From NCBI GenBank assembly GCA_026991575.1, contig JALXBF010000014.1:11467-75466 (forward strand): DNA of 64,000 bases, in the 5' to 3' direction. This document shows positions 50,819-64,000 of the stretch, piece by piece; within the stretch, counting starts at the first letter, position 1, and every line of letters begins with the position of its first letter. The position numbers were made by a program, and so were the translations under genes. The stretch comes from Planctomycetota bacterium. Lineage in GTDB: Bacteria > Planctomycetota > Planctomycetia > JALXBF01. The notes under the pieces were generated by a model. It made no database searches. It was not told the DNA's origin and saw nothing but the letters and a program-made list of their open reading frames with translations.

Positions 50819-52147
50819 CTACTGGCTCAGGGCATCCTCGTCCAGCGGCGTCTGGAACACGGGCCAGCACTCGTTCATGGCCTTGCTGCCGCCGGCGGGG
50901 GTCATCAGCTTGGCGAAGACCTCACCGTCGATGGAGGTGCTGATCTTCCGGGCCGAGCCATCGCACATGACGATGTTGATGACGCCCGGATGGTTTGAGA
51001 TCAGGTACGGCCAGCCTTCGTCAGCGAAGACCGCGCCGTTGATATTCTCGGGCCAGCCTGCTGGATTCTGGCGGGCGTCTTCGCGGTTGACGCGTCCGAA
51101 GTCTGCGCGCCTGCCCGAGCAGGTCAAGCCTGGTCGGTTGATGTTGAACGGCTTACCGGTCTGGCAATTGCCGCCCTCGGCGCAGAAGTCGTCGCTCATC
51201 CAGAAGCCGACGCGGAACGGGTCAGGCGCAGCCCACGTTCCTTCGTACAGGCCGCTGCCCGGGGCGCCTGGGTGGCTGCTATTCCACCACGCACCTGCCT
51301 GATCCACGTACCCGGCCTTGATGCGTTCGCTCAAGAGGATCGTCGTGGAGGCACCGTCGCGGATACTGGACGGGGTTCTCCGGAGGTCGAAGGGGGTGTT
51401 GCCACGGAGGGTGCCGATGCTGGTCAGGGTCATGTTCTTGGCGGCGATGAGATCCTGGACTGGGGTTGCCCCGGAGAGGTTGAGGGGGTTACCGCTGTTG
51501 TTCACGGGGCTGAACCACAGGGTGGTGAATCCGCCGTTGATCACGTACGTTAGGTTCCCCCGTCCTTGGGTGACGGTGTCATCGTTGGGGCAGACGAGGA
51601 CGTTGAGGTGGCGTTGGCCGAGGGAGTAGTGGCTTTCTTCGGGTCCTTGGGTCGTGAAGTTGCCGGAGCTATCGGGTTCGTCGAACAGAGCGTACCGCCA
51701 GCCTCGGCCCGAGCCTGAGTTGACTTTACTGGTTGCCTGCCATTGTTCGTAGAGGGCCTGTTGTTCGATGAAGGGCAGGATGTCGACGACCCAGCTATGC
51801 AGGGGGAACTGCCAGACGATTTCGTTGACTTTGGTGAGGTCTGGCCAGGTGGCGTTGAAGCCTGGGTGGGCTGCCAGCGGGAGGCCCTGGGTGCCGGTTT
51901 GGTTGAGGCCGTTGCCGGCGGGGTCGTCGTTTTCGGAGGCGAAGGTTCCGAGGTTCGGGTAGCGTCCTTTTTGGGTGACGAAGTTCTGGATGGCCAGGCC
52001 GAGCTGGCGCATGTTGCTCATGCATTGGGTTTGTCGTGCGGCCTCGCGGGCCATCTGGACCGCGGGCAGGATGAGCGATGCGAGGATTGCGATGATGGCG
52101 ATGACGACGAGGAGCTCGATGAGCGTGAATGCTCTACGTTTGGTCAT
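50819..52147 (-). CDS. DUF1559-family protein with a prepilin-type N-terminal cleavage/methylation domain (H-X9-DG family)
   Basis: N-terminal [29 protein letters not shown]-terminal [18 protein letters not shown] = H-X9-DG. This family is hugely expanded in Planctomycetes. Confidence 0.8.
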
Positions 52148-52599
52148 GTTCCACCTCCACCCGGCAGGGCAGCTTGGTTGCTATGGTGTGTCTATTGTAC
52201 GGTTAAGTGCAAAGCCGTTCTGACGATCTGACGGGCCCGCGGGCCCGGGAGGAACCGTCCACCCTGCCGCGGCGGCCACCTCCCGCAACCGTAGCCAGGC
52301 GTCCGGGCACTGAGAGCTTGTCTAGACGGCATTCCGCGCCACATAGTGTCGTCGCGGAGCCCCTTTGTGACACTTCCCGTTCTGTCGTGTCCGTCTTGTG
52401 GAGACGGGTGCCGGCGGGCCGTATCCGTAACGACCCTCGAGCAGCGCATGCCGACGTCGTTCGTCGAGCCCGTCAGCTCACCACCGCGAACCGATGCGCC
52501 AATGCATACACGGCCTCTGCGGCCTCTATCGCAGTATGAACTGCAACGCCGGCTTTGCTTGGTCACAACACCTAGCCCCCGCACCGCACAAACTGCGCA

Positions 52600-55500
52600 C
52601 TACTCGATTATCTCCGAGTAAATCACCACCTTGCGCAGAATCTGTAGGAGCTCTTCTCGGGTCTGTGGTGGTCCGGCCCACCCGTCAGCTCTGCTTCGAT
52701 CAACGACAAAGAACGCCCTGTGACGCACAGGCACTCCCGCATCGGTGCCAATTTCATCGCCCACCATTGGCAAGGCCTCGTCCGCCTCGTCGATCTGGCC
52801 GTCCAAGTCGTTATCGCGTCCATCGAATAATCTCGCGCCTCGAGAGAACAGCGGCACGTATACCACGTCGGTACCCCTGTCGACGGTGTCGTCACGGTTG
52901 TTGTCTAAACCGTCGCCGTCCAAAGAGAGTTCGTCTTCCTCGTCAACCTCTCCGTCACCGTCGTTGTCCACTCCATCCAAGCGCGCAGCTGGGAACCTTG
53001 GCTCTGCGACTTCGAAGAATCCAACCGTGATCCAAACGGCGAACACGCTACTTCTGGTCGTGATAACGTTCCCCAGCCGACGCAAAGGATCGAACAGGTG
53101 ATACGGGTAGCTGTACCGGTTGGGAATGGTGTTCGTGGCTCCGGGCACCAGCCCCTGCCGGTCACCGTTGCTCAGCCCGGGCGGAGCCACAGGTCTCCGG
53201 TCCAAGAGCAGTTGGCCAGCGGGACCGGCTAGTGCGAGAATGGTGTTCGCGATCGGGGCAGAAAAGCTTCGGATCGGCCCCTGCTGACGGAGCTGGTTTA
53301 GGGACATCCATAGTGCGGACTGCTCCGGCGAAGTTATCCCGGCGATTTGCCCGTTACCTGTCTGGACCAGCGCTGCCGGATGATTATTGAGCAACGCTAA
53401 AAGAACCTCCGGATCCGTTACCGTGTTGATGTTGACTTTTCCGGGCACACGCCAGCGACGGCGATCGCCCCCCCCGCCGTCGGAATCTCGGGAACCGTTC
53501 ATCGGGCTTGGGACTTCAACGAGCTCGAGTAAACGATGATAGGTAGGGGCGCGATGCGTTGGGGAGGGCTGTTGCAGGAAGTTCCACATATAGCCGTACA
53601 TGACGTGAGCCACGGGGCCATTTCCATCGAACCCCCAGAACGGCGCCGCGACCCCTGCACCCTGGTTCCCACCCGCGCCAGAGTCGAGCTGCTCCCACTT
53701 CCCGATTTCCACTAGCACATTTGCTGGGGTCGGTAAGGGCACAAAGAAGTCGATCTGTTGGGCACCCTGGTCCGCTTCACTAAGAGCTCGGAACACCGTT
53801 GTCAGCAGCGGCGGAGAAATCGCCGGTACAAGGAAGAGGTCAATTGGGCTGTAGACGGGATGATCGAAAAACACCAGTGGGGTTTCAACCTGGCGACGGT
53901 TCGCATTGGGTGCCCCGAGGGTATGCGGGCGCGCATTCTGCCCGGCGCCTCCCGGGTGCGGTTCGTGGCGGGCGGAGTACGTTTCCACTCGCTCCATGCT
54001 CACGATCCTGTTCTGGTTGTTCTGGCCAGCGTCAGCGAGCCATACCTTGGCACGAAGCACATCCACGGTGATGTATGGATTGGACTGCGCGTCGTGCGGG
54101 TGGCCCGGATGGGCTAGTCTCTGCAGGTAGACGTACATTTCGCGCGTGTTCGGATCCAGCTGCAGCTGCACGCTCTGCGGCAACAGGTCGAGCTCGTAGT
54201 CGACGCGGTCAATGGGAACAGCAGCGCCCTGGGGCGGCGGCCCGAGCACCAGGTACTGGCCAGGACGCAGTACCGGCGGGGGAGTAGGAGCGTTGTCGAA
54301 GGTCACGGTGTACGCCGCCTGTGCGACTTCCCCGGTGATCTCATCCGTGCTAGGTTCCGTGGCCAGGACCAACCGATATACGCCAACGCGCGGTTCGCCG
54401 GCGCGATTGGGCAGGTACTTGTCGAGGGCAATCTCCTGGTCCGAAGCGTTGAACAGCTCGATCCACAGACGGTATTGCGTGGTCTGATTCTGGTTGTTAC
54501 CTCCTTGGTTGCCAATGGATTCCTCGTAAGCCAGCGTCTCGGATATAACAACCTTGGGCTTCTCCACGCCCCACACCACCATCCGATGGACCCCCTCGTT
54601 AGTGGAAAGATTCCCATCCACGTCCCAGCCGTCCAAGGGCCACAGATCAAACTCAAAACCGGTCATAACATCGTCGGGGTCGACGAAGTCTACGAAGTTG
54701 ACCGCATACTGAGCCATTCTTCGCACAAAGTCTTTCGCCGGACCGTCGCTGGTGACGTTGCCCTTCGTCCAGGTCTGCAGCACGTCATCAGGTACGATTG
54801 AAAGCCAAAGCGCAAGATACAGGTCCCGCGCCATGGCCCGAGGGTCGTAGGACGGATCGGGACGGTTTGGGGCAGGTGAGATCGCTGTGCTGGCCCAATA
54901 GGGGAGCTGGTCCCTTGCAGCCGGAGGCATGATCAGCGGGCGATGGAGGTTGAGTCGGCGCCCGCTAGCCAGTTCCATCGGGATCTGGACGTCATCGCTG
55001 CCGGCGCTGCCCAGCTCGGCGGCTTCGTCTACTTGGCCGTTGGTATTGTCATCGTGGAGCGCACGTCCGGGAAGCAGGTCGGCACCTGGATGCCAGACTA
55101 AGCCGTAATCGCCCGGGTCCATTCCGCCGTTTGCCGCCTGCCATTGCTCGCCGATCGGGAGAATCCCGGTCAAGTGTGTTCGCGTGTGCGCCGGCGGTCG
55201 GTTCGCTCCCGCTCGGAATCGCAGTTGCGAAAGTCCAGCAGCACCATCGGAGTTAATTCCGATGGGTGGCAAGCTTGGAACAATGACGTCCCAGCTTTCG
55301 GTCGTCAGCATCCAACGTCGCCGAAGGGCAACCTCAGGAAGATATGGGTCGAAGAGGGAAGGAGCGAGTCGGCTCAGGCGAGCCCGATCCAACAGCCCCC
55401 GCGTCCCGATATCCCCGTAACGGTACAGCAATGCCAGCTCCGAAACTGTGAAGGGCCGGTCTGGACCGGCCAGGTCGGTCCGGTAGACGTTAACTTCGTT

Positions 55501-57153
55501 GGCCTCGTCAAGGTTCTCGTAGGTTTCCTCGCCCAAGCTCGCATCCCAGCCTAGCGCAACGCCGCCCGAGCCAAATCTGGGTAGTGTACTCGGCAGGGTA
55601 ACCCAAGGCCCGTACAACAGGCGGCCTCGCTGGTCAACCCACACGGCCCCGTCCCCGTCCAGGTCCATTGGGGTTCCCGCTGTGAACCAATGTGGCGTAA
55701 CTGTGGTCGCATCCTCCCATGTCAGTCCCGTTTGATTTGAGCCCGGCGAGTATACGAGGGCCCTATAGGGCCGCCACCGCATACCAAGCAGCAGATCGCC
55801 TGACTGGAAACGCAGCATAGCCGGATCGGCGACGTCTGCTGCTTGGGGATACGGGCTAGCACCGTAGCCGACGTCGTCATCCATCGACCCGACTCCTGGA
55901 GGATCAAAGTAGCCGCCCCACCGGCCCGGAACGACTTGCCCGGTCGTAGGATCGAAGAATCCCCGTATAATCCGTGCGTATTCGTAGAGCGAATACCCGC
56001 CTGTGGCGTAGACCTGACGGAAAAACAGCGGATCTGGCGAAAAGACGTTCTGAAGATTCACCTCCGTCGGTGAGGCTCCCTGTCCCGCCGACACTAGACC
56101 CGGAGCAGACACTCGCTGGAGTGCCTCAGCCAGCGTTGTCTGCCGTGCGGGGCTCGCGTCAGGCGGAACCAACAGATGGTCTAGGTGACTGTCGACTAGA
56201 TCTCGATGTTGCTGTCCCTGCCTCTCAGCAGGGTCATCGGCCCGTCCGGGAACGCTGTCCTCGTTGAGCTGCCCATGCACATTCAGGTTCAGTTTGCTGT
56301 CAAGGTCCACAATGAGCACTGCCACCAACGGTTTGTAGAGCTTGCCATCTTGGGTACGAAGGAACGGCAGCCCAGCGTCGATCCAGAAACTGTCTCGGAC
56401 CCCGTCAAGGTCATTGTCGACTTCCAAGACCGGCCCATTTGGGTAGGCACTGACTGGGAATAGGCCAGGGGGGTAAAGTACCCGAGCCAAGACATCTGCT
56501 CCTGATCCACTCAGAGCCGGCCGATGGTAGCTAGGTATCACCGTCGTGTTTAGCGTATTGGTCGTCCGGTCGACGCTACGTGTGATCAAGGCAAGGAACA
56601 TGTTGCTGAGGTCGGGAGCATCGTAGTCTTCGTCGTGTTGTGTGTCCTGGCTCGGGTGATCCGGAGGCAGCGTCGTGAACCGTACACCCGGGGTTCTTCC
56701 ATTTAGTACGTAGTTCACCCTCGCATCGCGGGCACCTAGCCCATTGAACGCTCTCTGATACCGCTCGAACCACTGAATCTTCCCGTCCGGAATGGGGCGG
56801 CCCCGCTCGTCGAACAGGTCGTTATCCGAGCCGTACATGTCGCGCAGGAGTGAGTGGCCGCGTAGCGCAGAAGTTGCGTTATCGGTATCGGCCACGATTT
56901 GACCGAGCACTGCTTCGAAGAGTTCAGCTGGCTCAAGATCGGCAATCGTCCGGCGCACTAGATTCCCGTATTGCTCTGAGGCCGATTGCTCGGCACCCGA
57001 GAGAGCAACGAAAGTGACTGCTAAGACGGAGACGATGGCCAGCAGTGCCAGAACGACGATCAGGGCAATACCCCGTCGTCGGTGCGCTGCCATGCTGCGA
57101 CCCCCGTGTCGACTCCGCAAGAGAAGACTATCTGCGGCGTCAGCACGGCTCAT
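52600..57153 (-). CDS. giant (1517 aa) GspK-like pseudopilin-cluster terminal protein with C-terminal Asp-rich Ca-binding-like repeats
   Basis: The N-terminal RRGIALIVVLALLAIVSVLAVTFVALSGAEQ resembles GspK/PulK N-termini. The C-terminus carries repeated DxDxDG-type loops (DGVDNDGDGEVDEED, DGDGLDNNRDD, DGRDNDLDGQIDEADE). Its start overlaps the upstream gene's stop by 4 bp. Confidence 0.5.
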   Translation of the reverse strand: MSRADAADSLLLRSRHGGRSMAAHRRRGIALIVVLALLAIVSVLAVTFVALSGAEQSASEQYGNLVRRTIADLEPAELFEAVLGQIVADTDNATSALRGHSLLRDMYGSDNDLFDERGRPIPDGKIQWFERYQRAFNGLGARDARVNYVLNGRTPGVRFTTLPPDHPSQDTQHDEDYDAPDLSNMFLALITRSVDRTTNTLNTTVIPSYHRPALSGSGADVLARVLYPPGLFPVSAYPNGPVLEVDNDLDGVRDSFWIDAGLPFLRTQDGKLYKPLVAVLIVDLDSKLNLNVHGQLNEDSVPGRADDPAERQGQQHRDLVDSHLDHLLVPPDASPARQTTLAEALQRVSAPGLVSAGQGASPTEVNLQNVFSPDPLFFRQVYATGGYSLYEYARIIRGFFDPTTGQVVPGRWGGYFDPPGVGSMDDDVGYGASPYPQAADVADPAMLRFQSGDLLLGMRWRPYRALVYSPGSNQTGLTWEDATTVTPHWFTAGTPMDLDGDGAVWVDQRGRLLYGPWVTLPSTLPRFGSGGVALGWDASLGEETYENLDEANEVNVYRTDLAGPDRPFTVSELALLYRYGDIGTRGLLDRARLSRLAPSLFDPYLPEVALRRRWMLTTESWDVIVPSLPPIGINSDGAAGLSQLRFRAGANRPPAHTRTHLTGILPIGEQWQAANGGMDPGDYGLVWHPGADLLPGRALHDDNTNGQVDEAAELGSAGSDDVQIPMELASGRRLNLHRPLIMPPAARDQLPYWASTAISPAPNRPDPSYDPRAMARDLYLALWLSIVPDDVLQTWTKGNVTSDGPAKDFVRRMAQYAVNFVDFVDPDDVMTGFEFDLWPLDGWDVDGNLSTNEGVHRMVVWGVEKPKVVISETLAYEESIGNQGGNNQNQTTQYRLWIELFNASDQEIALDKYLPNRAGEPRVGVYRLVLATEPSTDEITGEVAQAAYTVTFDNAPTPPPVLRPGQYLVLGPPPQGAAVPIDRVDYELDLLPQSVQLQLDPNTREMYVYLQRLAHPGHPHDAQSNPYITVDVLRAKVWLADAGQNNQNRIVSMERVETYSARHEPHPGGAGQNARPHTLGAPNANRRQVETPLVFFDHPVYSPIDLFLVPAISPPLLTTVFRALSEADQGAQQIDFFVPLPTPANVLVEIGKWEQLDSGAGGNQGAGVAAPFWGFDGNGPVAHVMYGYMWNFLQQPSPTHRAPTYHRLLELVEVPSPMNGSRDSDGGGGDRRRWRVPGKVNINTVTDPEVLLALLNNHPAALVQTGNGQIAGITSPEQSALWMSLNQLRQQGPIRSFSAPIANTILALAGPAGQLLLDRRPVAPPGLSNGDRQGLVPGATNTIPNRYSYPYHLFDPLRRLGNVITTRSSVFAVWITVGFFEVAEPRFPAARLDGVDNDGDGEVDEEDELSLDGDGLDNNRDDTVDRGTDVVYVPLFSRGARLFDGRDNDLDGQIDEADEALPMVGDEIGTDAGVPVRHRAFFVVDRSRADGWAGPPQTREELLQILRKVVIYSEIIE

Positions 57154-59228
57154 TGCAACTCCTCCACGATAGTGATCTGCCTTGTTTCTCCGGTCGCCTC
57201 GTCGATGAACCGGATCGTTATTTGGATTGCCTTGAGGGGCAGCGGGTAGGGCATGGCGTAGGCTGTGCCACCTGCCCCGGGCTCAGTGGCCGGCAGACTA
57301 TAGACTGAGCACCACGTGTCATACGTTTGCCACAAGGACTGCGGCGGGGGTAAAAGCGTTGGGACGAATGCATCGGTGTAGGGGCTCTGCGCGTTCCTCC
57401 TGACGTATAGGCCCTGGAAGCCAAGCCACGGATACCCGAACCCTGGCCCACCGATCTCAACGGGCGATCCATTGGTCGATCCATTGCGAAGGCGGACCAC
57501 ATGACGAGGCAGGGGAGGCCACAGCCGATTCCGGTACGCCACGTGCGGTTCTTGCGGTGGAGGCGCGATTGTGTCCGCCGACAAGAGGGCGTCTGGCTGG
57601 ATGACCAACGGGTCCAGGGGCCATGGGGATAGAGCGATCATGGCCGTGTTCCATTCGAGGACGCGGTCGTTGAGGTTGCTTTCGCCAACCCAGCCGGCGC
57701 CGGGCAGTGGCCCAGGTGGGGGCCCGTTCGCCCCATAGGGATCCAGTGCTTGATATCCCAGGTCAACGAACGCGCCAGGGCCATAAGCACCTTGTTGCTG
57801 CGCCCCCAGGCTGGGGGCGCCGCCTGTCGGATCCCACACTTTGACATCGAAAGACACAACGTTTTGCAAGAGAACATCCTCTGCGGCCCGCAGGGGATCG
57901 GTTGCGGCCCCGGCGTTGCCAGGAGCCCATGGATCGAAGCGTCTTAGCCCACCGGGGAGGCGCAGCGCCGTTGTGATGCTCGGCGTCCATCGGCCTCCGG
58001 CGAACTGGTTCGGATAGTCCCAACCAGGCGCCGATGACTCGCGCAACGTCGGACGCCCCCACCAAATCTCCTCCGTGGCAGCAACGGGACTGCCTCCCCC
58101 TGGATACGGAACCCCAGCGCCACTGGTCGCATTTTCCCACGATCGGTCCCGAGTCGCTGCAGAATGGTCTAGGGTGTCATGGCAGCCATTCGGCAGCACT
58201 CTATCGTCGAATGACAATCCGACATCGCCTGTGGGCGTCGGACCGAACGGAAAGTTCGGGTCAGCGGGGCTGTCAGCAGCAAGGCCCGAAAGTAGGTAGC
58301 CAGCGGGTGCGGTCATGCCGTACCTTGTACTGCGGTATGTCAGGTCGCCTAGCGTGTTGACAACGGGAACGGTGCCGCCGACAGATGGGGGACGGGCTGA
58401 AATATCGTACTGCGCATACCAAGAAATCGCGGGGTTGTAGAAGGCGGCAGAGGGTTGAGGAGTGTCTACCAGTAGGACCCGCCGGTACAGCGTGCCCTGG
58501 CGGACAAAATAGATCACTTCGGCATAAGGCGAGCTGGTCAGTCCATCGTCTGGCGGAGGCAACGCTCGGTCAGGCTCACTGCCGGGCACACAGCGGCCTA
58601 TGTAGCCGGCCCACGGTTCTGGAGAGCGGCTCCCCGTGGCGGAGAGGCTCACTGTGAAGGCAAGTACGTCGTCGCCATCCTCGCCTTGCTCGTCGGCTGG
58701 GGAATTCTCCTCGATCATGAAGTACCCCGCGTTCTCCCGGGGATCTACCCCCACCGGCACATAGTACTCGATGTACACGTCGTCACTGCCTGGCGCGCCA
58801 AGCTCGTCTCGGTCGATGATAAACACTGTGCTCTGCCCGGGGCCCGCCTCGGGTATGAAATCTCGGTATCCGTCACCGTCGTCGTCGACTCCTGCTCTAC
58901 CGGGTCGCGAGTCCGGACCCGGAAGCCACCGGCCTACCTTGACCGCTCGTGGAGAGACCGACCGGATGGTACGGTGGCGGAGGTCGAAACGAAGGGTGGA
59001 CTCGACAAAACGGATGCGTTCCAGCAGCACGTGACTAGCGCGCAGCTGGCGTGCTGCATCTGACGCCATGCCGACGACCTGGCCGACGATGGCCATCATC
59101 AGCATTAGGAGCGCCACAGCGACGAGCATCTCGACGAGCGTCAGCGCTCGTCGGCTCCGCAGCGCCCCTCCGCTCGGCCACCACCTCCCAGAACCGACAA
59201 CATGTGTAATGGTCGGCGGATTCTTCAT
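57150..59228 (-). CDS. enlarged pseudopilin-like protein (~693 aa) with a class-III signal peptide
   Basis: ATG at 59228 in an ATGA overlap with the upstream stop. RSRRALTLVEMLVAVALLMLMMAIV prepilin-type motif. Internal GRAGVDDDGDGYRDF Ca-loop-like motif. Confidence 0.6.
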   Translation of the reverse strand: MKNPPTITHVVGSGRWWPSGGALRSRRALTLVEMLVAVALLMLMMAIVGQVVGMASDAARQLRASHVLLERIRFVESTLRFDLRHRTIRSVSPRAVKVGRWLPGPDSRPGRAGVDDDGDGYRDFIPEAGPGQSTVFIIDRDELGAPGSDDVYIEYYVPVGVDPRENAGYFMIEENSPADEQGEDGDDVLAFTVSLSATGSRSPEPWAGYIGRCVPGSEPDRALPPPDDGLTSSPYAEVIYFVRQGTLYRRVLLVDTPQPSAAFYNPAISWYAQYDISARPPSVGGTVPVVNTLGDLTYRSTRYGMTAPAGYLLSGLAADSPADPNFPFGPTPTGDVGLSFDDRVLPNGCHDTLDHSAATRDRSWENATSGAGVPYPGGGSPVAATEEIWWGRPTLRESSAPGWDYPNQFAGGRWTPSITTALRLPGGLRRFDPWAPGNAGAATDPLRAAEDVLLQNVVSFDVKVWDPTGGAPSLGAQQQGAYGPGAFVDLGYQALDPYGANGPPPGPLPGAGWVGESNLNDRVLEWNTAMIALSPWPLDPLVIQPDALLSADTIAPPPQEPHVAYRNRLWPPLPRHVVRLRNGSTNGSPVEIGGPGFGYPWLGFQGLYVRRNAQSPYTDAFVPTLLPPPQSLWQTYDTWCSVYSLPATEPGAGGTAYAMPYPLPLKAIQITIRFIDEATGETRQITIVEELQ

Positions 59229-60751
59229 CGGCCACCCACAATGGTTTGATACGCCATGACCGCACGGGGTAACAACACCAGTGCCCCAAGACCACCGCGC
59301 CCTTGAGTGGCTGCCCAGGGGCCTGCCCAGAGAGCCTCCGCGTCGCCCTCGATCACCACCCATAGGACTGGCCCCAAGTTTGGATCGGAAACTCTCACCG
59401 TTTCAGCCACGCGGTACACATACGCGTGCCTCGGAGCGGCCGCCCTCGAGTAGTCCCTGGGCGGCTCCTGACGGCCACCAAGATTCACGTACGTAGCATC
59501 CAGAACATACGAACCCTTCGGTATACGGAGCCCCTCGTTGGTGGCACGCGGTTGGAACGCACCATGGTTCCCAATAGGAATGCGCAGGACGTTAGCCGGC
59601 GCGTCGTCACTGCCGGGCCAACCCAGCTCCGCCCAATCAATAAGTCCCCGATCAATACGCCCGCTCCTGACGCGCGGCTTAAACACAAAGTCTGTGATGC
59701 CGTTGCCGTCGTCATCGACGCCGGCTCTGCCTGGGGCGCCGTCCGGGCCGACTGGAAAGACAAACGGCACGGTGACGGGCGGCTCTTGGAAATCCCGCTC
59801 TCGAAAGGCCACGATGGTTACTCGGAATGGGCCCACCGGAATGTCCGTTTCAAGCCCAGGTAGAAGTCCGGTGAGCTGATCGGGAGGTTCCTGCTGCGGG
59901 GCGGGCCCGTACTCACCGTCACTACCGGGCAAGTGCCATTCCTCGCCTGCGTCGCTGTCGGAATCGTTGCTCACGCGGTCATAATAAGCCGGCGCGAACG
60001 TCTGGCTGGTTTTTTGAATGATCGCGAACCATGTGTATCGGAGCTTCCTCGGCAATGTTCCCGGGGCATACAGAGGCCCCGACGTCGGCCTGAGGAATGC
60101 CCTGCTGCCGTAGGCAACCAGTTCGGCAGGTTGCGAAAGTCTGGCCTGGAATGGCAGATAGGGATAGTTCGGGTGCCAGTACAACCGATCGGGAGCCGAG
60201 AACATGCTCCGTGCCAGCACTCGGGCGGCGGCTAAACCGCTTTGGGCCTGCGCCCTCTGAATGGCGTATCCGCGATACCTTGGAAGACCGTGGTAGAGTA
60301 CTTGTCCTTGCGAGTCCTGCAATCTGCCTAGCCTTGTTTCATCCGGACATGGATATTCCGGAAGGGTGGCTAACGTGCTGTTCTCGAGAATTCCCAGCGG
60401 ATCAATCACCACCGGAATTCCCGGCCGTGCTCCCTCCACTAAGACCCACTCCACCTGCTGAACCGGGTCTCGCACCGTTCCGTCCGGCTGCACGGGGTCC
60501 GCGATGTAAGCATTCGCAATCGCCCCCCAAGGCGGGGCATACAGCGGCCCGGCGATCGAGATCGCTCGGGCAGTTCTGGCAAGAACCGCGCCTCTCGTGT
60601 CGTCTGTGGCCCGGCCCAGGCGTGCGAGCCCTACCGGGAACAGGGCCGCTAGCGAGATCAGTCCAACCGCCAGCAAGAACATGGCGATCAGTATCTCTAT
60701 GAGGGACAAGCCCCCTCGCTTTGTCCGGCAACTAAACGTTCGACCTTCCAC
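59225..60751 (-). CDS. enlarged pseudopilin-like protein (508 aa) with a class-III signal peptide
   Basis: GTG start. KRGGLSLIEILIAMFLLAVGLISLAAL prepilin motif (canonical Gly at -1). Internal GRAGVDDDGNGITDF motif shared with the downstream paralog. Confidence 0.6.
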   Translation of the reverse strand: MEGRTFSCRTKRGGLSLIEILIAMFLLAVGLISLAALFPVGLARLGRATDDTRGAVLARTARAISIAGPLYAPPWGAIANAYIADPVQPDGTVRDPVQQVEWVLVEGARPGIPVVIDPLGILENSTLATLPEYPCPDETRLGRLQDSQGQVLYHGLPRYRGYAIQRAQAQSGLAAARVLARSMFSAPDRLYWHPNYPYLPFQARLSQPAELVAYGSRAFLRPTSGPLYAPGTLPRKLRYTWFAIIQKTSQTFAPAYYDRVSNDSDSDAGEEWHLPGSDGEYGPAPQQEPPDQLTGLLPGLETDIPVGPFRVTIVAFRERDFQEPPVTVPFVFPVGPDGAPGRAGVDDDGNGITDFVFKPRVRSGRIDRGLIDWAELGWPGSDDAPANVLRIPIGNHGAFQPRATNEGLRIPKGSYVLDATYVNLGGRQEPPRDYSRAAAPRHAYVYRVAETVRVSDPNLGPVLWVVIEGDAEALWAGPWAATQGRGGLGALVLLPRAVMAYQTIVGGR

Positions 60752-60765
60752 AGATTCCCGCCTCG

Positions 60766-61767
60766 CTACGGTACAAGTAGACCTGGGACAATGGAGCTTG
60801 TTAGTGCTCTATCCACCGCCCTGTGGGCCGCGTCCGGATCAGCCAATCCTGGCTGAAACACCGACACTGTGCCAGTTCGTGCGCTAAGAGCTACAACACG
60901 ATAATCTGCGTTCTCATCGCTGTTCCTTCGCTCGGTCGTGATCCAGAACTTGATATACGACCGCAGGGCAGCCTCTCCCACGATCTGACCAGTGGGGGCG
61001 AAGAGGATATCCATAGGGCGCCCGCTACTCGGGTCCTGGTTCGGTATTCCGCGGCTCAACTGGGGGTTAAGCCCGACGTCGATGTATGTACCAACGGGCA
61101 GAGACAATGCGGGAACAGTGTCCAGCCGCGGTGGGTTGAAGATCTGGTAGGACCGTGCCTGAGTTGTTTCGTGGGGCAACGGCGTGCCCGGGAAGGTCCG
61201 TATGCGCATGTACAACCCTTGGGTGTCCCGACCCACCTCCTCTACCAAGTACAACGGTCCTGCGTAATCAAACCGTATCCAAGCCTGACCGACCACGACC
61301 CGCGGAACGTCGTCGTCGGCGCTGTTCGGGTCAGGGCCCGGGTCGACGTAATCCCAGAGCGGATCGCCCCCCACTGGCCGAACCTCTGCCTGCGTCGTCG
61401 TCACCCTACGCACGAAAACATGCCCCTCGCTGAAAGGATCTGGGGTAGCCACAAATTGGAGGATGCGTACACTGTTGGGCCGTCCTTCCTCTCGTACGAG
61501 GCGCACGCCATAGATCCTGCCCGTGGCCATGGCCCTCTCACGTGCCATTCGCAGGCCTTGTACCACCAGCCGTGTCGCAGCAGGAACACCGGTAGCGTCC
61601 GACCACACAACGAACAACACGCTGATCGCAACAACCGAGAAGGCCAACAGGAGGACGACGACAACAAGGAACTCGACGAGCGTCAGCGCTCGCCGAAGGT
61701 TCCCCGAGCGCGGCGCTGCTTCAAGCCGATCCATCCGTTTGGTTGGCCGAGCTACTGCGCTTCCCAT
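60766..61767 (-). CDS. enlarged pseudopilin-like protein (322-333 aa) with a class-III signal peptide
   Basis: LRRALTLVEFLVVVVLLLAFSVVAISVL prepilin motif. Two possible ATG starts, at 61767 and 61734. Confidence 0.6.
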   Translation of the reverse strand: MGSAVARPTKRMDRLEAAPRSGNLRRALTLVEFLVVVVLLLAFSVVAISVLFVVWSDATGVPAATRLVVQGLRMARERAMATGRIYGVRLVREEGRPNSVRILQFVATPDPFSEGHVFVRRVTTTQAEVRPVGGDPLWDYVDPGPDPNSADDDVPRVVVGQAWIRFDYAGPLYLVEEVGRDTQGLYMRIRTFPGTPLPHETTQARSYQIFNPPRLDTVPALSLPVGTYIDVGLNPQLSRGIPNQDPSSGRPMDILFAPTGQIVGEAALRSYIKFWITTERRNSDENADYRVVALSARTGTVSVFQPGLADPDAAHRAVDRALTSSIVPGLLVP

Positions 61768-62879
61768 AGCGTGCTCGCTGTGTGGTTGTCCAGGTTGTCC
61801 GCGTCAGCCCCGACTTCGCTGGAAGTACCAGGCGAAGGCAAATCGCGAAGGCGGGTGGCTGAGCGGTCGAAGTAAGACGGATCGTTAGGATCGCGCATCA
61901 GCCCGAAAAGTCCATCCGGACCCGCTGACACGATGAGCGGATACAACCGATAGGCAAAAGGGCGTTGCCTATTGGGCCAAAGTGTGATCGGAAAGAGCGC
62001 CTCATCGACAACCTGCCAGCCTCCCGGCCCCCGAGTAATGTACACGGGGTCGGTGACAAGCCCGGCAGGGTCCAGCAAGCTACCACTGACCGTGGGAACC
62101 GGAGGCTTTCCCTTCGCCGGCTGAAGAGACGACCTGTAGCCGTATGGGCAAAGGAAGAACAGTATCGGGTTGTCCCAGGCATCCACGATTTCCAGCAGCC
62201 CGTCGCCGTCGGAATCTCGGAGATTGCTATCCGGAATCCCAGGGACCGTTCCTGTTTCAGGGTCGTCCGCTACGATCACGTACAGACATTCCGCACGGGC
62301 AGTTTCCGGCTGATGATTGGCTAATGTTCCGTTAGTCGCTGCCCGCTCCAGGATCGCGATAAATCGTTGTGCCCCAGGGGGCAGCTCTGCCCGACTCTGA
62401 GCCCGCCGACACATGGGATCGCTGAGTGCGCTGCCCGGATCAAGGGGCGCGAAGTCCCCATTGACCCAGACGCTACCCAACTGGAGCGGGCTGTGGTACC
62501 GGTACTGCTGATTGCCAATCAGGAATAGCTCCGGTAGCTCCTGTCGCACCGTCCTCAATCGTGCTACAACCGTGGCCCGACGCCGAGCGGACTCGCTGTA
62601 GCTGCAATCGCTTCGATCTAGTGAAAGGGACATGTCGACCGGCAGGACACGGGCACGACTCCCCCTGCTCGCCTGCTGAAACTTCTGGTAGACTAGCTGG
62701 TCCAACACACTGATGATTCGCTGTGTCGCGCGTATCTTCGCACGCTCGGCCAATTGTGTTACCCCCCCAAAGCGCAGCACAAACGCCGCGACGATTGCAA
62801 TAAGCGCCATCACCACGAGTATCTCTACCAGCGTCACAGCTTGGCGCGCCTTTGGCGAGGGCTGGCGCAAGAGTGCCAT
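61752..62879 (-). CDS. enlarged GspG-like pseudopilin (375 aa)
   Basis: N-terminal RQAVTLVEILVVMALIAIVAAFV. C-terminal SAGPDG...GADADNLDN resembles the GspG Ca-binding GxDGxxG...DADI tail. Its start overlaps the upstream stop by 1 nt (TAATG). Confidence 0.6.
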   Translation of the reverse strand: MALLRQPSPKARQAVTLVEILVVMALIAIVAAFVLRFGGVTQLAERAKIRATQRIISVLDQLVYQKFQQASRGSRARVLPVDMSLSLDRSDCSYSESARRRATVVARLRTVRQELPELFLIGNQQYRYHSPLQLGSVWVNGDFAPLDPGSALSDPMCRRAQSRAELPPGAQRFIAILERAATNGTLANHQPETARAECLYVIVADDPETGTVPGIPDSNLRDSDGDGLLEIVDAWDNPILFFLCPYGYRSSLQPAKGKPPVPTVSGSLLDPAGLVTDPVYITRGPGGWQVVDEALFPITLWPNRQRPFAYRLYPLIVSAGPDGLFGLMRDPNDPSYFDRSATRLRDLPSPGTSSEVGADADNLDNHTASTLWEAQ

Positions 62880-64000
62880 TAGAGATCTCCAAGCGAACGG
62901 TCTGCGAAGTTAGTCAGGTTATCTTCTTCAACAGCCCGACTCTCGCCCAGCGTACAGGCCGATGGCAGGCCGTTCGTCCGCGACCAGGCACCGCCGCACC
63001 CAAATAATCCGTCTACGCCTGGCGAAATGATCTGGAACGACTTTCCGCGCCAGTAGAGGGGATGCCGTAGTAGGGCCTGATTGCCAGTGTGATAGGGCCT
63101 TCCCTGCGTGTATGGGTTGGGTCCCGGGCTGACATTCAGGACCACCTGCCCTTCCAGGCGCTGAAAGGCACTGGGATAGTCTGTCATGTCCCACTTCACC
63201 CGGAAAGCTTCCCGTGTCTCGTCCGCCAGGTTCCAGTCATCGGGCCGATATCCGGCTCCTTCGTACGCGGAGAAGTAGGCATAGCCCCGATTACCGTCCC
63301 TCCGTACTGGCAGGTACTCCCAGAACCCGTTAGGCGCGGTCCCCGCACCGCCGTCAATGAGGCGGGAAGTATCGAACTCGAAGAATGGACCGACTCGCTC
63401 GTATGGAGTCCCGTCCGCCGGGTTCACGAGTCGCGTTGGGTCGCCGGGAAACACGCTGAATCCCTGCACCCCGGGCGGCACAGCCTCCTTGCCCGGGTTG
63501 GTCGGAGACGGAGGTTCGCGCAGGCCTAACCCCCCCGGGTAGTCACCGATCGGGATACCACCCAGGAAGAAAACCAAACATTCATCCCCGCTAAGGGCGA
63601 ACGCTGTAGGGGCACCAGGCGGGTTCCCGTCGCCGTTCCAGTCGTAAAAGTCCAGCGGTGAGTTCCTAGGGTTGCCATCACCGTCCAGATCCAACGGCGG
63701 CGGTCCCGTCTCGCTGATCATAAGCTCCGGCCAAATGCGTCTCAAATAGTAGACACTCAGCGACCGGCTGAACACGGCATCCCTCGTAATCAAGTACTCA
63801 CCGTCCGCGCCAATAGCATCGGGAATAACGTTATCCTCAAAGAGCCGCCGCCAGTTGTCTGGTGAATAGTCACCGTTCTCAATAAGAACGATCTGGCTCG
63901 GAGGATAGACACCAAATTCCGCCTGAAACTGGTGGAGCGATATTTCCAGCAGCCTGACTTCTGAACGCTCCTGGGCTTCCCGTACGTTCCTGTAGGCGCC
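62879..64000 (-). CDS. hypothetical protein, first gene of the pseudopilin operon as seen; N-terminus lies beyond the window
   Basis: The reading frame stays open upstream of the listed TTG at 63793, to the window end. Contains DLDGDGN/WNGDGN Ca-loop-like motifs. It is translationally coupled to the next gene. Confidence 0.45.
   Translation of the reverse strand, partial: GAYRNVREAQERSEVRLLEISLHQFQAEFGVYPPSQIVLIENGDYSPDNWRRLFEDNVIPDAIGADGEYLITRDAVFSRSLSVYYLRRIWPELMISETGPPPLDLDGDGNPRNSPLDFYDWNGDGNPPGAPTAFALSGDECLVFFLGGIPIGDYPGGLGLREPPSPTNPGKEAVPPGVQGFSVFPGDPTRLVNPADGTPYERVGPFFEFDTSRLIDGGAGTAPNGFWEYLPVRRDGNRGYAYFSAYEGAGYRPDDWNLADETREAFRVKWDMTDYPSAFQRLEGQVVLNVSPGPNPYTQGRPYHTGNQALLRHPLYWRGKSFQIISPGVDGLFGCGGAWSRTNGLPSACTLGESRAVEEDNLTNFADRSLGDL

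What the first reader, a model, noticed from the sequence alone, without database searches (positions are those of the whole stretch)
52600..64000. Translationally coupled operon of five or more giant pseudopilin-like proteins in GspG-H-I-J-K order
Five consecutive minus-strand genes (375, ~330, 508, ~693 and 1517 aa), plus an upstream partial gene, abut or overlap by 1-16 nt; the junctions are TAATG, ATGA and a 4-nt overlap. Four carry unmistakable class-III (prepilin-type) signal peptides: RQAVTLVEILVV, RRALTLVEFLVV, RGGLSLIEILIA and RRALTLVEMLVA. The first is GspG-like, with a G-x-DG...DADxxD tail. The last has a GspK-like N-terminal hydrophobic segment. The count and order mimic the T2SS pseudopilus set G-H-I-J-K, but every member is 2-10 times the canonical size (~130-330 aa). 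No secretin, ATPase or platform gene is nearby. This is not the standard T2SS or T4P minor-pilin module. It could be an uncharacterised fibre or tip complex, and the clade-specific expansions of DUF1559-type pseudopilin-like genes in Planctomycetes make a lineage-specific system plausible.
Basis: partly seen in the sequence, partly recalled or inferred. Interest (0 to 1): 0.8.

Follow-up and report, generated by a model that had tools for sequence, protein, structure and literature searches.

The report
Planctomycete pilus operon with giant pilins
This is the pilin half of a type IV pilus-like operon found across Planctomycetes, built from oversized pilin-like proteins that end in a 1517-residue GspK-like cap, and its apparent counterpart in Planctopirus limnophila was scored essential but left uncharacterised.

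Summary
Six consecutive minus-strand genes (a partial 427-aa gene, then 375, 333, 508, 692 and 1517 aa) are tightly coupled. Five carry class-III prepilin signals with Glu+5. The sixth has a GspK/PilX-type N-terminus without Glu+5.

On the source contig, pilB-like, pilT, a second pilB-like and pilC/gspF genes lie directly upstream on the same strand.

The order pilB-pilT-pilB-pilC, four or five pilin-like genes, then the giant recurs in about 50 loci. At least 525 species genomes encode the giant, nearly all labelled Planctomycetota.

A locus with the same layout in Planctopirus limnophila (Plim_0410-0401) was scored essential by Tn-seq, and its six distal proteins were called unknown. Orthology is inferred from layout and gene sizes, not from sequence.

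Best reading: this is the filament and tip set of a retractile type IV pilus-like machine. It is a new variant of a known kind.

The parts
62879..64000 (-). C-terminal 373 codons of the 427-aa first pilin-like gene (p427). It is GspG/PilA-like and the candidate major subunit. Its start lies beyond the window end (L001:8718-10001).
   Evidence: The frame is open to the window end, and the full gene is on the source contig. From F30 the N-terminus aligns with residue 1 of mature PilE1, geopilin and GspG. NCBIfam GspG E=2e-10. hhalign gives GspG 98%. In the family, N_methyl hits 14 of 15 members and T2SSG 3 of 15. The C-terminus reads 'IISPGVDG...EEDNLTNF'.
61752..62879 (-). p375, a second GspG-like pilin (mature 361 aa).
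   Evidence: Pfam N_methyl 26.1 bits and TIGR02532 20.7 bits, both above cutoff. The family consensus contains 'DGWGxPIxF...SxGPDG...DNIxNH'. The best hhalign match is GspG at 96%. It overlaps p427 by TAATG.
60766..61767 (-). p333, a GspH/FimU-like minor pilin (mature 306 aa).
   Evidence: Signal A|LTLVE. In the family, 14 of 15 members hit GspH (best 3.7e-11) and 15 of 15 hit Verru_Chthon cassette protein D. The best hhalign match is GspH at 95.7%.
59225..60751 (-). p508, a PilV/GspI-like minor pilin (mature 494 aa).
   Evidence: Pfam N_methyl 21.9 bits, above cutoff. type_IV_pilV hits 15 of 15 family members (best 1.3e-7, below the family cutoff), and Verru_Chthon B hits 5 of 15. It carries a DDDGNGITD loop.
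57150..59228 (-). p692, a GspJ/PilW-like minor pilin (mature 664 aa).
   Evidence: Signal A|LTLVE, with N_methyl at 21.0 bits against a 21.2 cutoff. hhalign against E. coli GspJ gives 96.1% over 128 columns, reaching beyond the N-terminal helix. GspJ (PRK08808) and Verru_Chthon C each hit 4 of 13 family members. ATGA overlaps on both sides.
52600..57153 (-). p1517, a giant GspK/PilX-like protein without Glu+5; the proposed filament cap and tip protein.
50819..52147 (-). A DUF1559 / H-X9-DG prepilin-like gene (442 aa), 452 nt downstream. It is probably a separate transcription unit and may be a further substrate of the same machine.
   Evidence: Pfam SBP_bac_10 1.5e-38 and N_methyl 7.8e-8; NCBIfam pre_pil_HX9DG. 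A DUF1559 gene follows the giant gene in Paludisphaera borealis as well and in loci L005 and L057.

Best explanation
Window 52600-64000 is the distal, pilin-encoding half of a conserved planctomycetal type IV filament operon. The full order is pilB-like, pilT, pilB-like, pilC/gspF, p427 (GspG/PilA-like, probable major subunit), p375 (second GspG-like), p333 (GspH/FimU-like), p508 (GspI/PilV-like), p692 (GspJ/PilW-like) and p1517 (GspK/PilX-like).

Shown here:
- The genes, their coupling and their class-III signals.
- The upstream motor and platform genes.
- The invariant gene order across Planctomycetota.
- The best-match pattern running G to K.
- The GspK-like structural neighbours of the giant.

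Inferred from how T2SS and T4aP systems work:
- A prepilin peptidase encoded elsewhere cleaves the five Glu+5 prepilins.
- The H/I/J/K-like proteins assemble on the PilC platform into a priming complex.
- The giant, lacking Glu+5, sits at the top and ends up at the filament tip.
- p427, perhaps with p375 and DUF1559 paralogues, polymerises underneath, driven by the PilB-type ATPases.
- PilT retracts the filament.

The extra mass is an Ig-like lamin-tail domain, DxDxDG calcium-type loops and roughly 900 residues with no recognisable relatives. It is most likely displayed at the tip as a binding module.
For: - ORFs and junctions.
- Class-III motifs are exclusive to these genes within the window, and N_methyl/TIGR02532 hit them.
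- 140 operon ORFs in related loci carry the motif, with Gly at -1 in 115 and Ala in 25.
- The ATPases and platform lie directly upstream on the same strand. pilT_fam scores 459 bits against a 319 cutoff. PilB2 scores 664 bits on PilB and 634 on GspE. PilC and GspF models both match at about 390 bits.
- The same architecture is found in cultured Paludisphaera borealis and Bythopirellula goksoeyrii.
- At least 525 GTDB species genomes encode the giant, and at least 1286 protein clusters match it.
- The order p427-p375-p333-p508-(p692)-giant recurs in about 50 loci.
- hhalign gives a diagonal of best matches, and NCBIfam family-level hits agree.
Against: - None of the minor-pilin HMMs (GspH/I/J/K, PilV, Verru_Chthon A-D) reaches its curated cutoff. 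Most matches cover only the N-terminal helix.
- No secretin, PilMNO(P) or prepilin peptidase was seen in the 64-kb window or the 10 kb upstream.
- No PilY1 homologue was found.
- Which protein is the major subunit is unproven.
- A p692-like gene is undetected in most Pirellulales loci.
- No expression or filament data exist for this organism.
Confidence: 0.7

Rival explanations
1. It is a T2SS-like pseudopilus. The filament stays periplasmic and acts as a piston that expels folded proteins through a secretin, rather than forming a surface pilus. The giant GspK-like tip would contact cargo or the secretin.
For: - p427 and p375 are GspG-like at both ends.
- PilB2 passes the GspE cutoff (633.7 against 630.25) but not the PilB cutoff.
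- The P. limnophila genes are annotated as type II secretion, and the authors suggested a secretion role.
- Essentiality is easier to explain if the system exports envelope or nutrient-acquiring proteins.
- Planctomycetes secrete many CAZymes.
Against: - A bona fide PilT-family retraction ATPase sits inside the operon. To my knowledge T2SSs lack one.
- No GspC, L, M or D genes are in the locus.
- Pilins of 300-660 residues and a 1500-2600-residue cap are hard to fit inside a secretin vestibule.
Confidence: 0.18
2. One reading: a free-standing, lineage-specific fibre or tip complex that does not depend on a type IV assembly machine.
For: Inside the window itself there is no ATPase, platform or secretin gene.
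Against: The motor and platform genes are immediately upstream on the same strand. They are syntenic in about 50 loci across the phylum.
Confidence: 0.02
3. The proteins are ordinary membrane-anchored or Sec-exported envelope proteins whose N-termini merely resemble prepilin signals.
For: - Most HMM hits are limited to the N-terminal 25-70 residues and lie near or below cutoffs.
- Four of the five have Ala instead of the canonical Gly at -1.
Against: - The motif is found nowhere else in the window.
- Relatives mostly carry the canonical Gly at -1 with Glu at +5.
- The GspJ match of the p692 family extends over 128 columns.
- Linkage to pilB, pilT and pilC is fixed.
Confidence: 0.03
4. It is a competence (DNA-uptake) pilus, in which a large tip pilin binds DNA, as ComZ does in Thermus.
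For: - PilT is present.
- ComG-type HMMs give weak N-terminal hits.
Against: - No comEA, comEC or dprA genes are in the locus.
- The helix-hairpin-helix element is also part of GspK.
- A DNA-uptake role does not explain essentiality in culture.
Confidence: 0.05

Closest known systems
T2SS pseudopilus set GspG-H-I-J-K (E. coli/ETEC; GspI-J-K tip complex, PDB 3CI0; XcpVWX, 5VTM)
   Same: - Same gene order, directly after the gspF/pilC-type platform gene.
- Class-III signals with Glu+5 in the G-, H-, I- and J-like proteins, and no Glu+5 in the last, largest member.
- Best profile matches follow the diagonal.
- GspK is the top structural neighbour of the giant.
   Different: - Every member is 2-10 times larger, and there are two G-like genes.
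- A PilT ATPase and two PilB/GspE paralogues are in the operon.
- GspC, L, M and D are absent from the locus.
- No curated Gsp HMM cutoff is reached.
T4aP core minor pilins FimU-PilV-PilW-PilX with PilY1 (Pseudomonas, Myxococcus)
   Same: - They are homologous to GspH-K, in the same order.
- They prime assembly and stay at the tip.
- The system has a PilT retraction motor.
- The PilV HMM hits all 15 members of the p508 family.
- DxDxDG calcium-type loops recall PilY1 (from my own knowledge).
   Different: - There is no PilY1 gene; the giant PilX/GspK-like protein may combine both roles.
- pilMNOPQ is not linked.
- The pilins are far larger.
- The candidate major subunit is about 400 residues and GspG-like.
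Verru_Chthon cassette proteins A-D (NCBIfam TIGR02600, TIGR02598, TIGR02599, TIGR02596; uncharacterised cassettes of Verrucomicrobia)
   Same: - It is a PVC-superphylum cassette that pairs a model of about 1300 positions (A) with three prepilin-type proteins.
- The mapping is consistent: giant to A, p508 to B, p692 to C and p333 to D.
- UniRef already names the Paludisphaera borealis giant 'Verru_Chthon cassette protein A'.
   Different: All hits cover only the N-terminus and fall far below cutoff (for example 20.8 bits against 332 for A). The Verrucomicrobia cassettes themselves were not examined here.
Planctopirus limnophila locus Plim_0410-Plim_0401 (Rivas-Marin et al. 2023, PMC10632474)
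   Same: - The annotation order matches: T2SS E, twitching-motility protein, T2SS E, T2SS protein, then six Planctomycetes-restricted hypothetical proteins.
- Gene lengths back-calculated from the published insertion indices are 565, 370, 570, 419, 352, 370, 360, 468, unknown and 1599 aa, which fits this operon's pattern.
   Different: - Orthology is inferred from layout and sizes. The P. limnophila sequences could not be retrieved here.
- The paper did not identify the six proteins as pilins.
Modular or large minor pilins (S. sanguinis PilB/PilC, ETEC CofB, Thermus ComZ; PMC8179133)
   Same: The principle is the same: a pilin module carries bulky functional domains that are presented at the filament tip.
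   Different: - Those proteins are about 500-860 residues with a single grafted module.
- Here all members are enlarged, and the cap reaches 1500-2600 residues with no annotated domain.

Membership tests
Type IV pilin / pseudopilin superfamily | Class-III signal: short basic leader, Gly or Ala at -1, a hydrophobic N-terminal helix and Glu at +5 | tested here: met
   Five proteins have [A/G]|[F/V/L][T/S]L[V/I]E. N_methyl or TIGR02532 is above cutoff for p375 and p508, 0.2 bit short for p692 and weak for p333. p427 aligns with mature residue 1 of solved pilins. The motif occurs nowhere else in the window.
Type IV pilin / pseudopilin superfamily | Cleavage and N-methylation by a prepilin peptidase (PilD/GspO) | not testable with these tools
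   No A24 peptidase gene was found in the window or the 10 kb upstream. The rest of the genome is not available.
T2SS pseudopilus GspG-H-I-J-K | Five pseudopilin genes in G-H-I-J-K order after gspF, with the last lacking Glu+5 | tested here: met
   The order was confirmed by hhalign best matches and by family-level NCBIfam hits. The giant has Val at +5, and 57 of 57 relatives are hydrophobic there.
T2SS pseudopilus GspG-H-I-J-K | Proteins reach the curated equivalog HMM cutoffs (TIGR01710, TIGR01708, TIGR01707, TIGR01711, NF037980) | tested here: not met
   All scores are 11-41 bits against cutoffs of 44-130 bits.
T2SS (whole system) | GspC, GspL, GspM and the secretin GspD in the cluster, and no PilT | tested here: not met
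   None of these genes is in the locus, and a PilT-family ATPase is present (459 bits against a 319 cutoff).
Type IVa pilus system | PilB extension ATPase, PilT retraction ATPase and PilC platform | tested here: met
   PilT is above cutoff. PilB1 and PilB2 score 630 and 664 bits on the PilB model, just under its 675.65 cutoff. The PilC models score about 390 bits, below their 700 cutoff but across the full length.
Type IVa pilus system | PilMNOP alignment complex and PilQ secretin | not testable with these tools
   They are absent from the window and the upstream 10 kb. P. limnophila is reported to have three pilQ-like genes elsewhere in its genome.
Type IVa minor pilin set with PilY1 | A PilY1 beta-propeller adhesin encoded with the minor pilins | tested here: not met
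GspK / PilX-type cap protein | A GspK fold: a pilin fold with an inserted helical domain | tested here: inconclusive
Verru_Chthon cassette (TIGR02600/02598/02599/02596) | Full-length match above the curated cutoffs | tested here: not met
   Hits cover the N-terminus only: A scores 20.8 bits against 332, C 14 against 256, D 18 against 70 and B 14 against 51. The mapping is consistent at family level but stays sub-threshold.
DUF1559 (PF07596) / H-X9-DG pseudopilin-like family | An SBP_bac_10 domain and the H-X9-DG C-terminal motif | tested here: not met
   These features are met only by the separate downstream gene at 50819-52147. None of the six operon proteins, and none of 15 p427-family members, hit PF07596.

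The most novel reading that the evidence does not exclude
This operon encodes the long-sought 'fishing-rod' pilus of Planctomycetes. A thick filament of about 40-kDa subunits emerges from the crateriform structures, and its giant GspK-like tip protein captures polysaccharides or other macromolecules. PilT retraction then hauls them into the enlarged periplasm. Unusually for a type IV pilus, the system is essential for growth.
Probability: 0.22. Interest if true: 0.85.

Novelty: new variant of a known kind. Interest (0 to 1): 0.6.

Why it matters
Reviews from 2025 still describe the players behind the planctomycetal pili-like fibres and macromolecule uptake as unknown. A Tn-seq study scored an operon with this same layout as essential in P. 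limnophila, yet listed its six distal products as Planctomycetes-specific proteins of unknown function.

Recognising those six as a complete G-H-I-J-K-type pilin set, attached to PilB, PilT and PilC, turns the unknowns into a testable machine. It gives named candidates for the major subunit, the priming complex and the tip protein.

It also extends the known size range of pilins. The GspK-like cap reaches 1500-2600 residues and is conserved across a phylum. That raises the question of how such a protein passes a secretin, and why a pilus-like system would be essential.

Tried and rejected
I used two contiguous 1200-residue fragments instead.
- Foldseek against the PDB found nothing significant for the giant. 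The afdb50 library was unavailable.
- Sequence searches of the PDB with the giant, alone or as a profile, found nothing. Profiles of the p692 and p508 families hit only the N-terminal helices of full-length pilins.
- hhalign of the giant's C-terminal module against E. coli GspK was insignificant. It aligned only the 'NxN...L' helix-hairpin-helix-like motif. My motif-based mapping onto GspK therefore remains a lead, not a test.
- The P. limnophila giant could not be retrieved by name in two profile searches. The Roseimaritima ulvae protein was not on record. Cluster look-ups gave no names.
- Promoter and terminator scans were no better than shuffled sequence. I saw no convincing sigma-54 site in the pilC-p427 spacer, so I make no claim about transcription units.
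- I considered that p427 might be a DUF1559 member and rejected it.
- A first MAFFT run timed out and a 50-sequence alignment failed.
Full report
**1. Observation**

The minus strand of 52600-64000 carries six consecutive ORFs: 1517, 692, 508, 333 and 375 aa, plus one that stays open to the window end. On the source metagenome contig the last is a complete 427-aa gene. An independent gene caller gives the same boundaries for all six.

The junctions are TAATG, a 16-nt overlap, a 14-nt gap, ATGA and ATGA.

Five proteins have a class-III signal with Glu at +5: A|FTLVE, A|VTLVE, A|LTLVE, G|LSLIE and A|LTLVE. The 1517-aa protein has RRRG|IALIV, with Val at +5.

A strict version of the motif occurs only five times in the six-frame translation of the entire window. 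All five sit at the N-termini of these genes or of the DUF1559 gene downstream. Pfam N_methyl or TIGR02532 pass their cutoffs for two proteins and lie just below for a third.

**2. Surroundings**

The decisive result is the look-up of the 375-aa protein on public contigs. Directly upstream on the same strand, and just beyond window position 64000, lie four genes:
- a 572-aa MshEN+T2SSE ATPase;
- a 373-aa T2SSE ATPase;
- a 573-aa MshEN+T2SSE ATPase;
- a 413-aa T2SSF protein.

NCBIfam identifies the 373-aa protein as PilT/PilU family (459 bits against a 319 cutoff). The two long ATPases fall between PilB and GspE: 630 and 664 bits on PilB, and 616 and 634 on GspE. The platform matches PilC and GspF models about equally. 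PilB2 carries a c-di-GMP-binding MshEN motif above cutoff.

The rest of the window holds unrelated genes, including an SNF2 helicase, a rhamnogalacturonan lyase, PFOR and transporters. It has no secretin, PilMNO or prepilin peptidase. A DUF1559/H-X9-DG prepilin-like gene follows the giant gene after 452 nt.

**3. Distribution**

The giant has 65 homologues in a first search. All are 1242-2605 aa, carry no Pfam domain and come from Planctomycetota. One is the Paludisphaera borealis protein that UniRef calls 'Verru_Chthon cassette protein A'. A profile search finds at least 1286 protein clusters.

The 80 loci kept come from Pirellulales, Planctomycetales, Gemmatales, Isosphaerales and Thermoguttaceae, plus one Phycisphaerales and a few MAGs with unspecific or inconsistent labels.

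The giant is conserved over its whole length, not only at its ends.

Using phmmer and family HMMs on the ORFs of these loci, the order PilB1-PilT-PilB2-PilC-p427-p375-p333-p508-(p692)-giant recurs in about 50 loci that have enough upstream DNA. It also holds in the cultured species P. borealis and Bythopirellula goksoeyrii.

The p692-like gene precedes the giant in 12 loci and follows it in 5. It is undetected in most Pirellulales loci.

Among 140 pilin-like ORFs in these operons, 115 have Gly and 25 have Ala at -1. All 57 giants examined have a hydrophobic residue at +5.

**4. What each protein resembles**

Profiles built from the loci were compared with E. coli K-12 GspG-K by hhalign. Best matches by family:

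| Family | Best match | Probability |
|---|---|---|
| p427 | GspG | 98% |
| p375 | GspG | 96% |
| p333 | GspH | 96% |
| p508 | GspI | 23% (weak) |
| p692 | GspJ | 96% (128 columns) |
| giant | GspK | 39%, tied with GspJ at 38% |

NCBIfam scans of the family members agree:
- GspH and Verru_Chthon D hit nearly all p333 members.
- PilV hits all 15 p508 members, and Verru_Chthon B hits 5.
- GspJ and Verru_Chthon C hit part of the p692 family.
- T2SSG hits 3 of 15 p427 members.

None reaches a curated cutoff, and most matches cover only the N-terminal helix. These are distant relatives, not members of those equivalog families.

**5. The giant**

The sequence has no match in the PDB. Two AlphaFold2 models were made with 28-sequence alignments:
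- residues 318-1517: pLDDT 57, pTM 0.68;
- residues 21-1220: pLDDT 52, pTM 0.52.

The second model shows a 45-residue N-terminal helix of the pilin type.

Foldseek against the PDB gave only a marginal lamin-tail Ig hit. That hit agrees with the weak Pfam LTD match at residues 882-970.

The protein carries four DxDxDG-type loops against 0.07 expected by shuffling. One of them (residues 244-254) is nearly invariant across the family. p375, p508 and p692 carry one such loop each.

**6. Mechanism**

Shown: a tightly coupled pilin gene set in G-G-H-I-J-K order, attached to PilB, PilT, PilB and PilC, and conserved across a phylum.

Inferred from the established T2SS and T4aP model, in which GspH-I-J-K or FimU-PilV-PilW-PilX prime assembly and stay at the tip:
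- the four minor pilins form a priming complex capped by the giant;
- p427 polymerises beneath it;
- the PilB paralogues extend the filament and PilT retracts it.

PilT, together with the absence of GspC, L, M and D from the locus, favours a T4aP-like retractile fibre over a classical T2SS. The GspG-like character of p427 and p375 keeps a secretion-type pseudopilus alive as the main rival.

Speculative: a major subunit of about 400 residues would give a thick filament. That would fit the 12-nm pili-like fibres seen on large crateriform structures, which bind dextran.

**7. Literature**

The searchable literature holds no description of these proteins as pilins.

Rivas-Marin et al. [quoted passage not shown] It has four 'type II secretion' genes, one of them a twitching-motility protein, followed by six Planctomycetes-restricted hypothetical proteins. 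In their supplement, Plim_0401-0408 and Plim_0410 are 'essential' and the PilT gene is 'unclear'.

From their insertion indices I back-calculated gene lengths of 565, 370, 570, 419, 352, 370, 360, 468, unknown and 1599 aa. These fit the pattern here. Orthology is an inference, because I could not retrieve the sequences.

Reviews from 2025 still call the players of the proposed pilus 'fishing rod' unknown. Three pilQ-like genes of P. limnophila are individually dispensable. Modular pilins are known, but they are much smaller.

**8. Verdict**

This is not an orphan fibre system. It is the pilin half of a phylum-wide type IV filament operon whose subunits are all enlarged and whose cap is a giant GspK-like protein.

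I class it as a new variant of a known kind and score interest at 0.6. The points in its favour are the size and conservation of the cap, the probable essentiality, and the fact that it offers concrete candidates for an open question in planctomycete cell biology. The points against are that the overall type of machine is familiar and that key links rest on inference: GspK fold, P. limnophila orthology and surface exposure.

Noticed in passing
window 50819-52147 (-): A DUF1559/H-X9-DG prepilin-like gene lies 452 nt downstream of the giant gene. The same linkage occurs in Paludisphaera borealis (L004) and in loci L005 and L057, but not in Pirellulales loci. DUF1559 is the largest paralogue family in P. 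limnophila (68 copies, two of them essential), so these proteins may be further substrates of this machine.
   Followed up: partly
window 62840, 61689, 59147 and 52132; L001:8718-10001: In this genome, four of the five Glu+5 prepilins, and the DUF1559 protein, have Ala rather than the canonical Gly at -1. In related operons Gly outnumbers Ala 115 to 25.
   Followed up: partly
L001:5413-7134 and L001:2294-4012 (upstream of the window): There are two PilB/GspE-like ATPase paralogues in one operon. Only the second carries an MshEN-type c-di-GMP-binding motif above the NCBIfam cutoff (55.8 bits against 38; the first scores 26 bits).
   Followed up: no
L001:1402-1698: A 98-aa double zinc-ribbon ORF lies just upstream of pilB1 on the same strand. 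Its function is unknown.
   Followed up: no
L076, L050 and L066 (Gemmataceae and a Planctomycetota MAG): Some giant-family paralogues stand alone, with no ATPase or pilin genes within 10 kb. One Gemmataceae MAG (CAVVPN01) has both a canonical operon (L060) and a stand-alone copy (L076).
   Followed up: partly
L026, L038, L039, L061 and L079: In these loci the GspJ-like (p692-family) gene lies after the giant gene instead of before it. In most Pirellulales loci none is detected.
   Followed up: partly
window about 52774-52971 (giant residues about 1395-1460): An acidic insertion rich in DxDxDG motifs (DGVDNDGDGEVDEEDE...DGRDNDLDGQIDEADE) is almost unique to this protein. Its alignment occupancy among homologues is 0.05-0.29.
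   Followed up: no
window 52000-64000: The operon has a slightly lower G+C content (0.60-0.63) than the rest of the window (0.63-0.67).
   Followed up: no
L087:16349-18214 (Bythopirellula goksoeyrii): A 621-aa gene with a weak dockerin hit directly follows the giant gene. The p692 family HMM did not detect it.
   Followed up: partly
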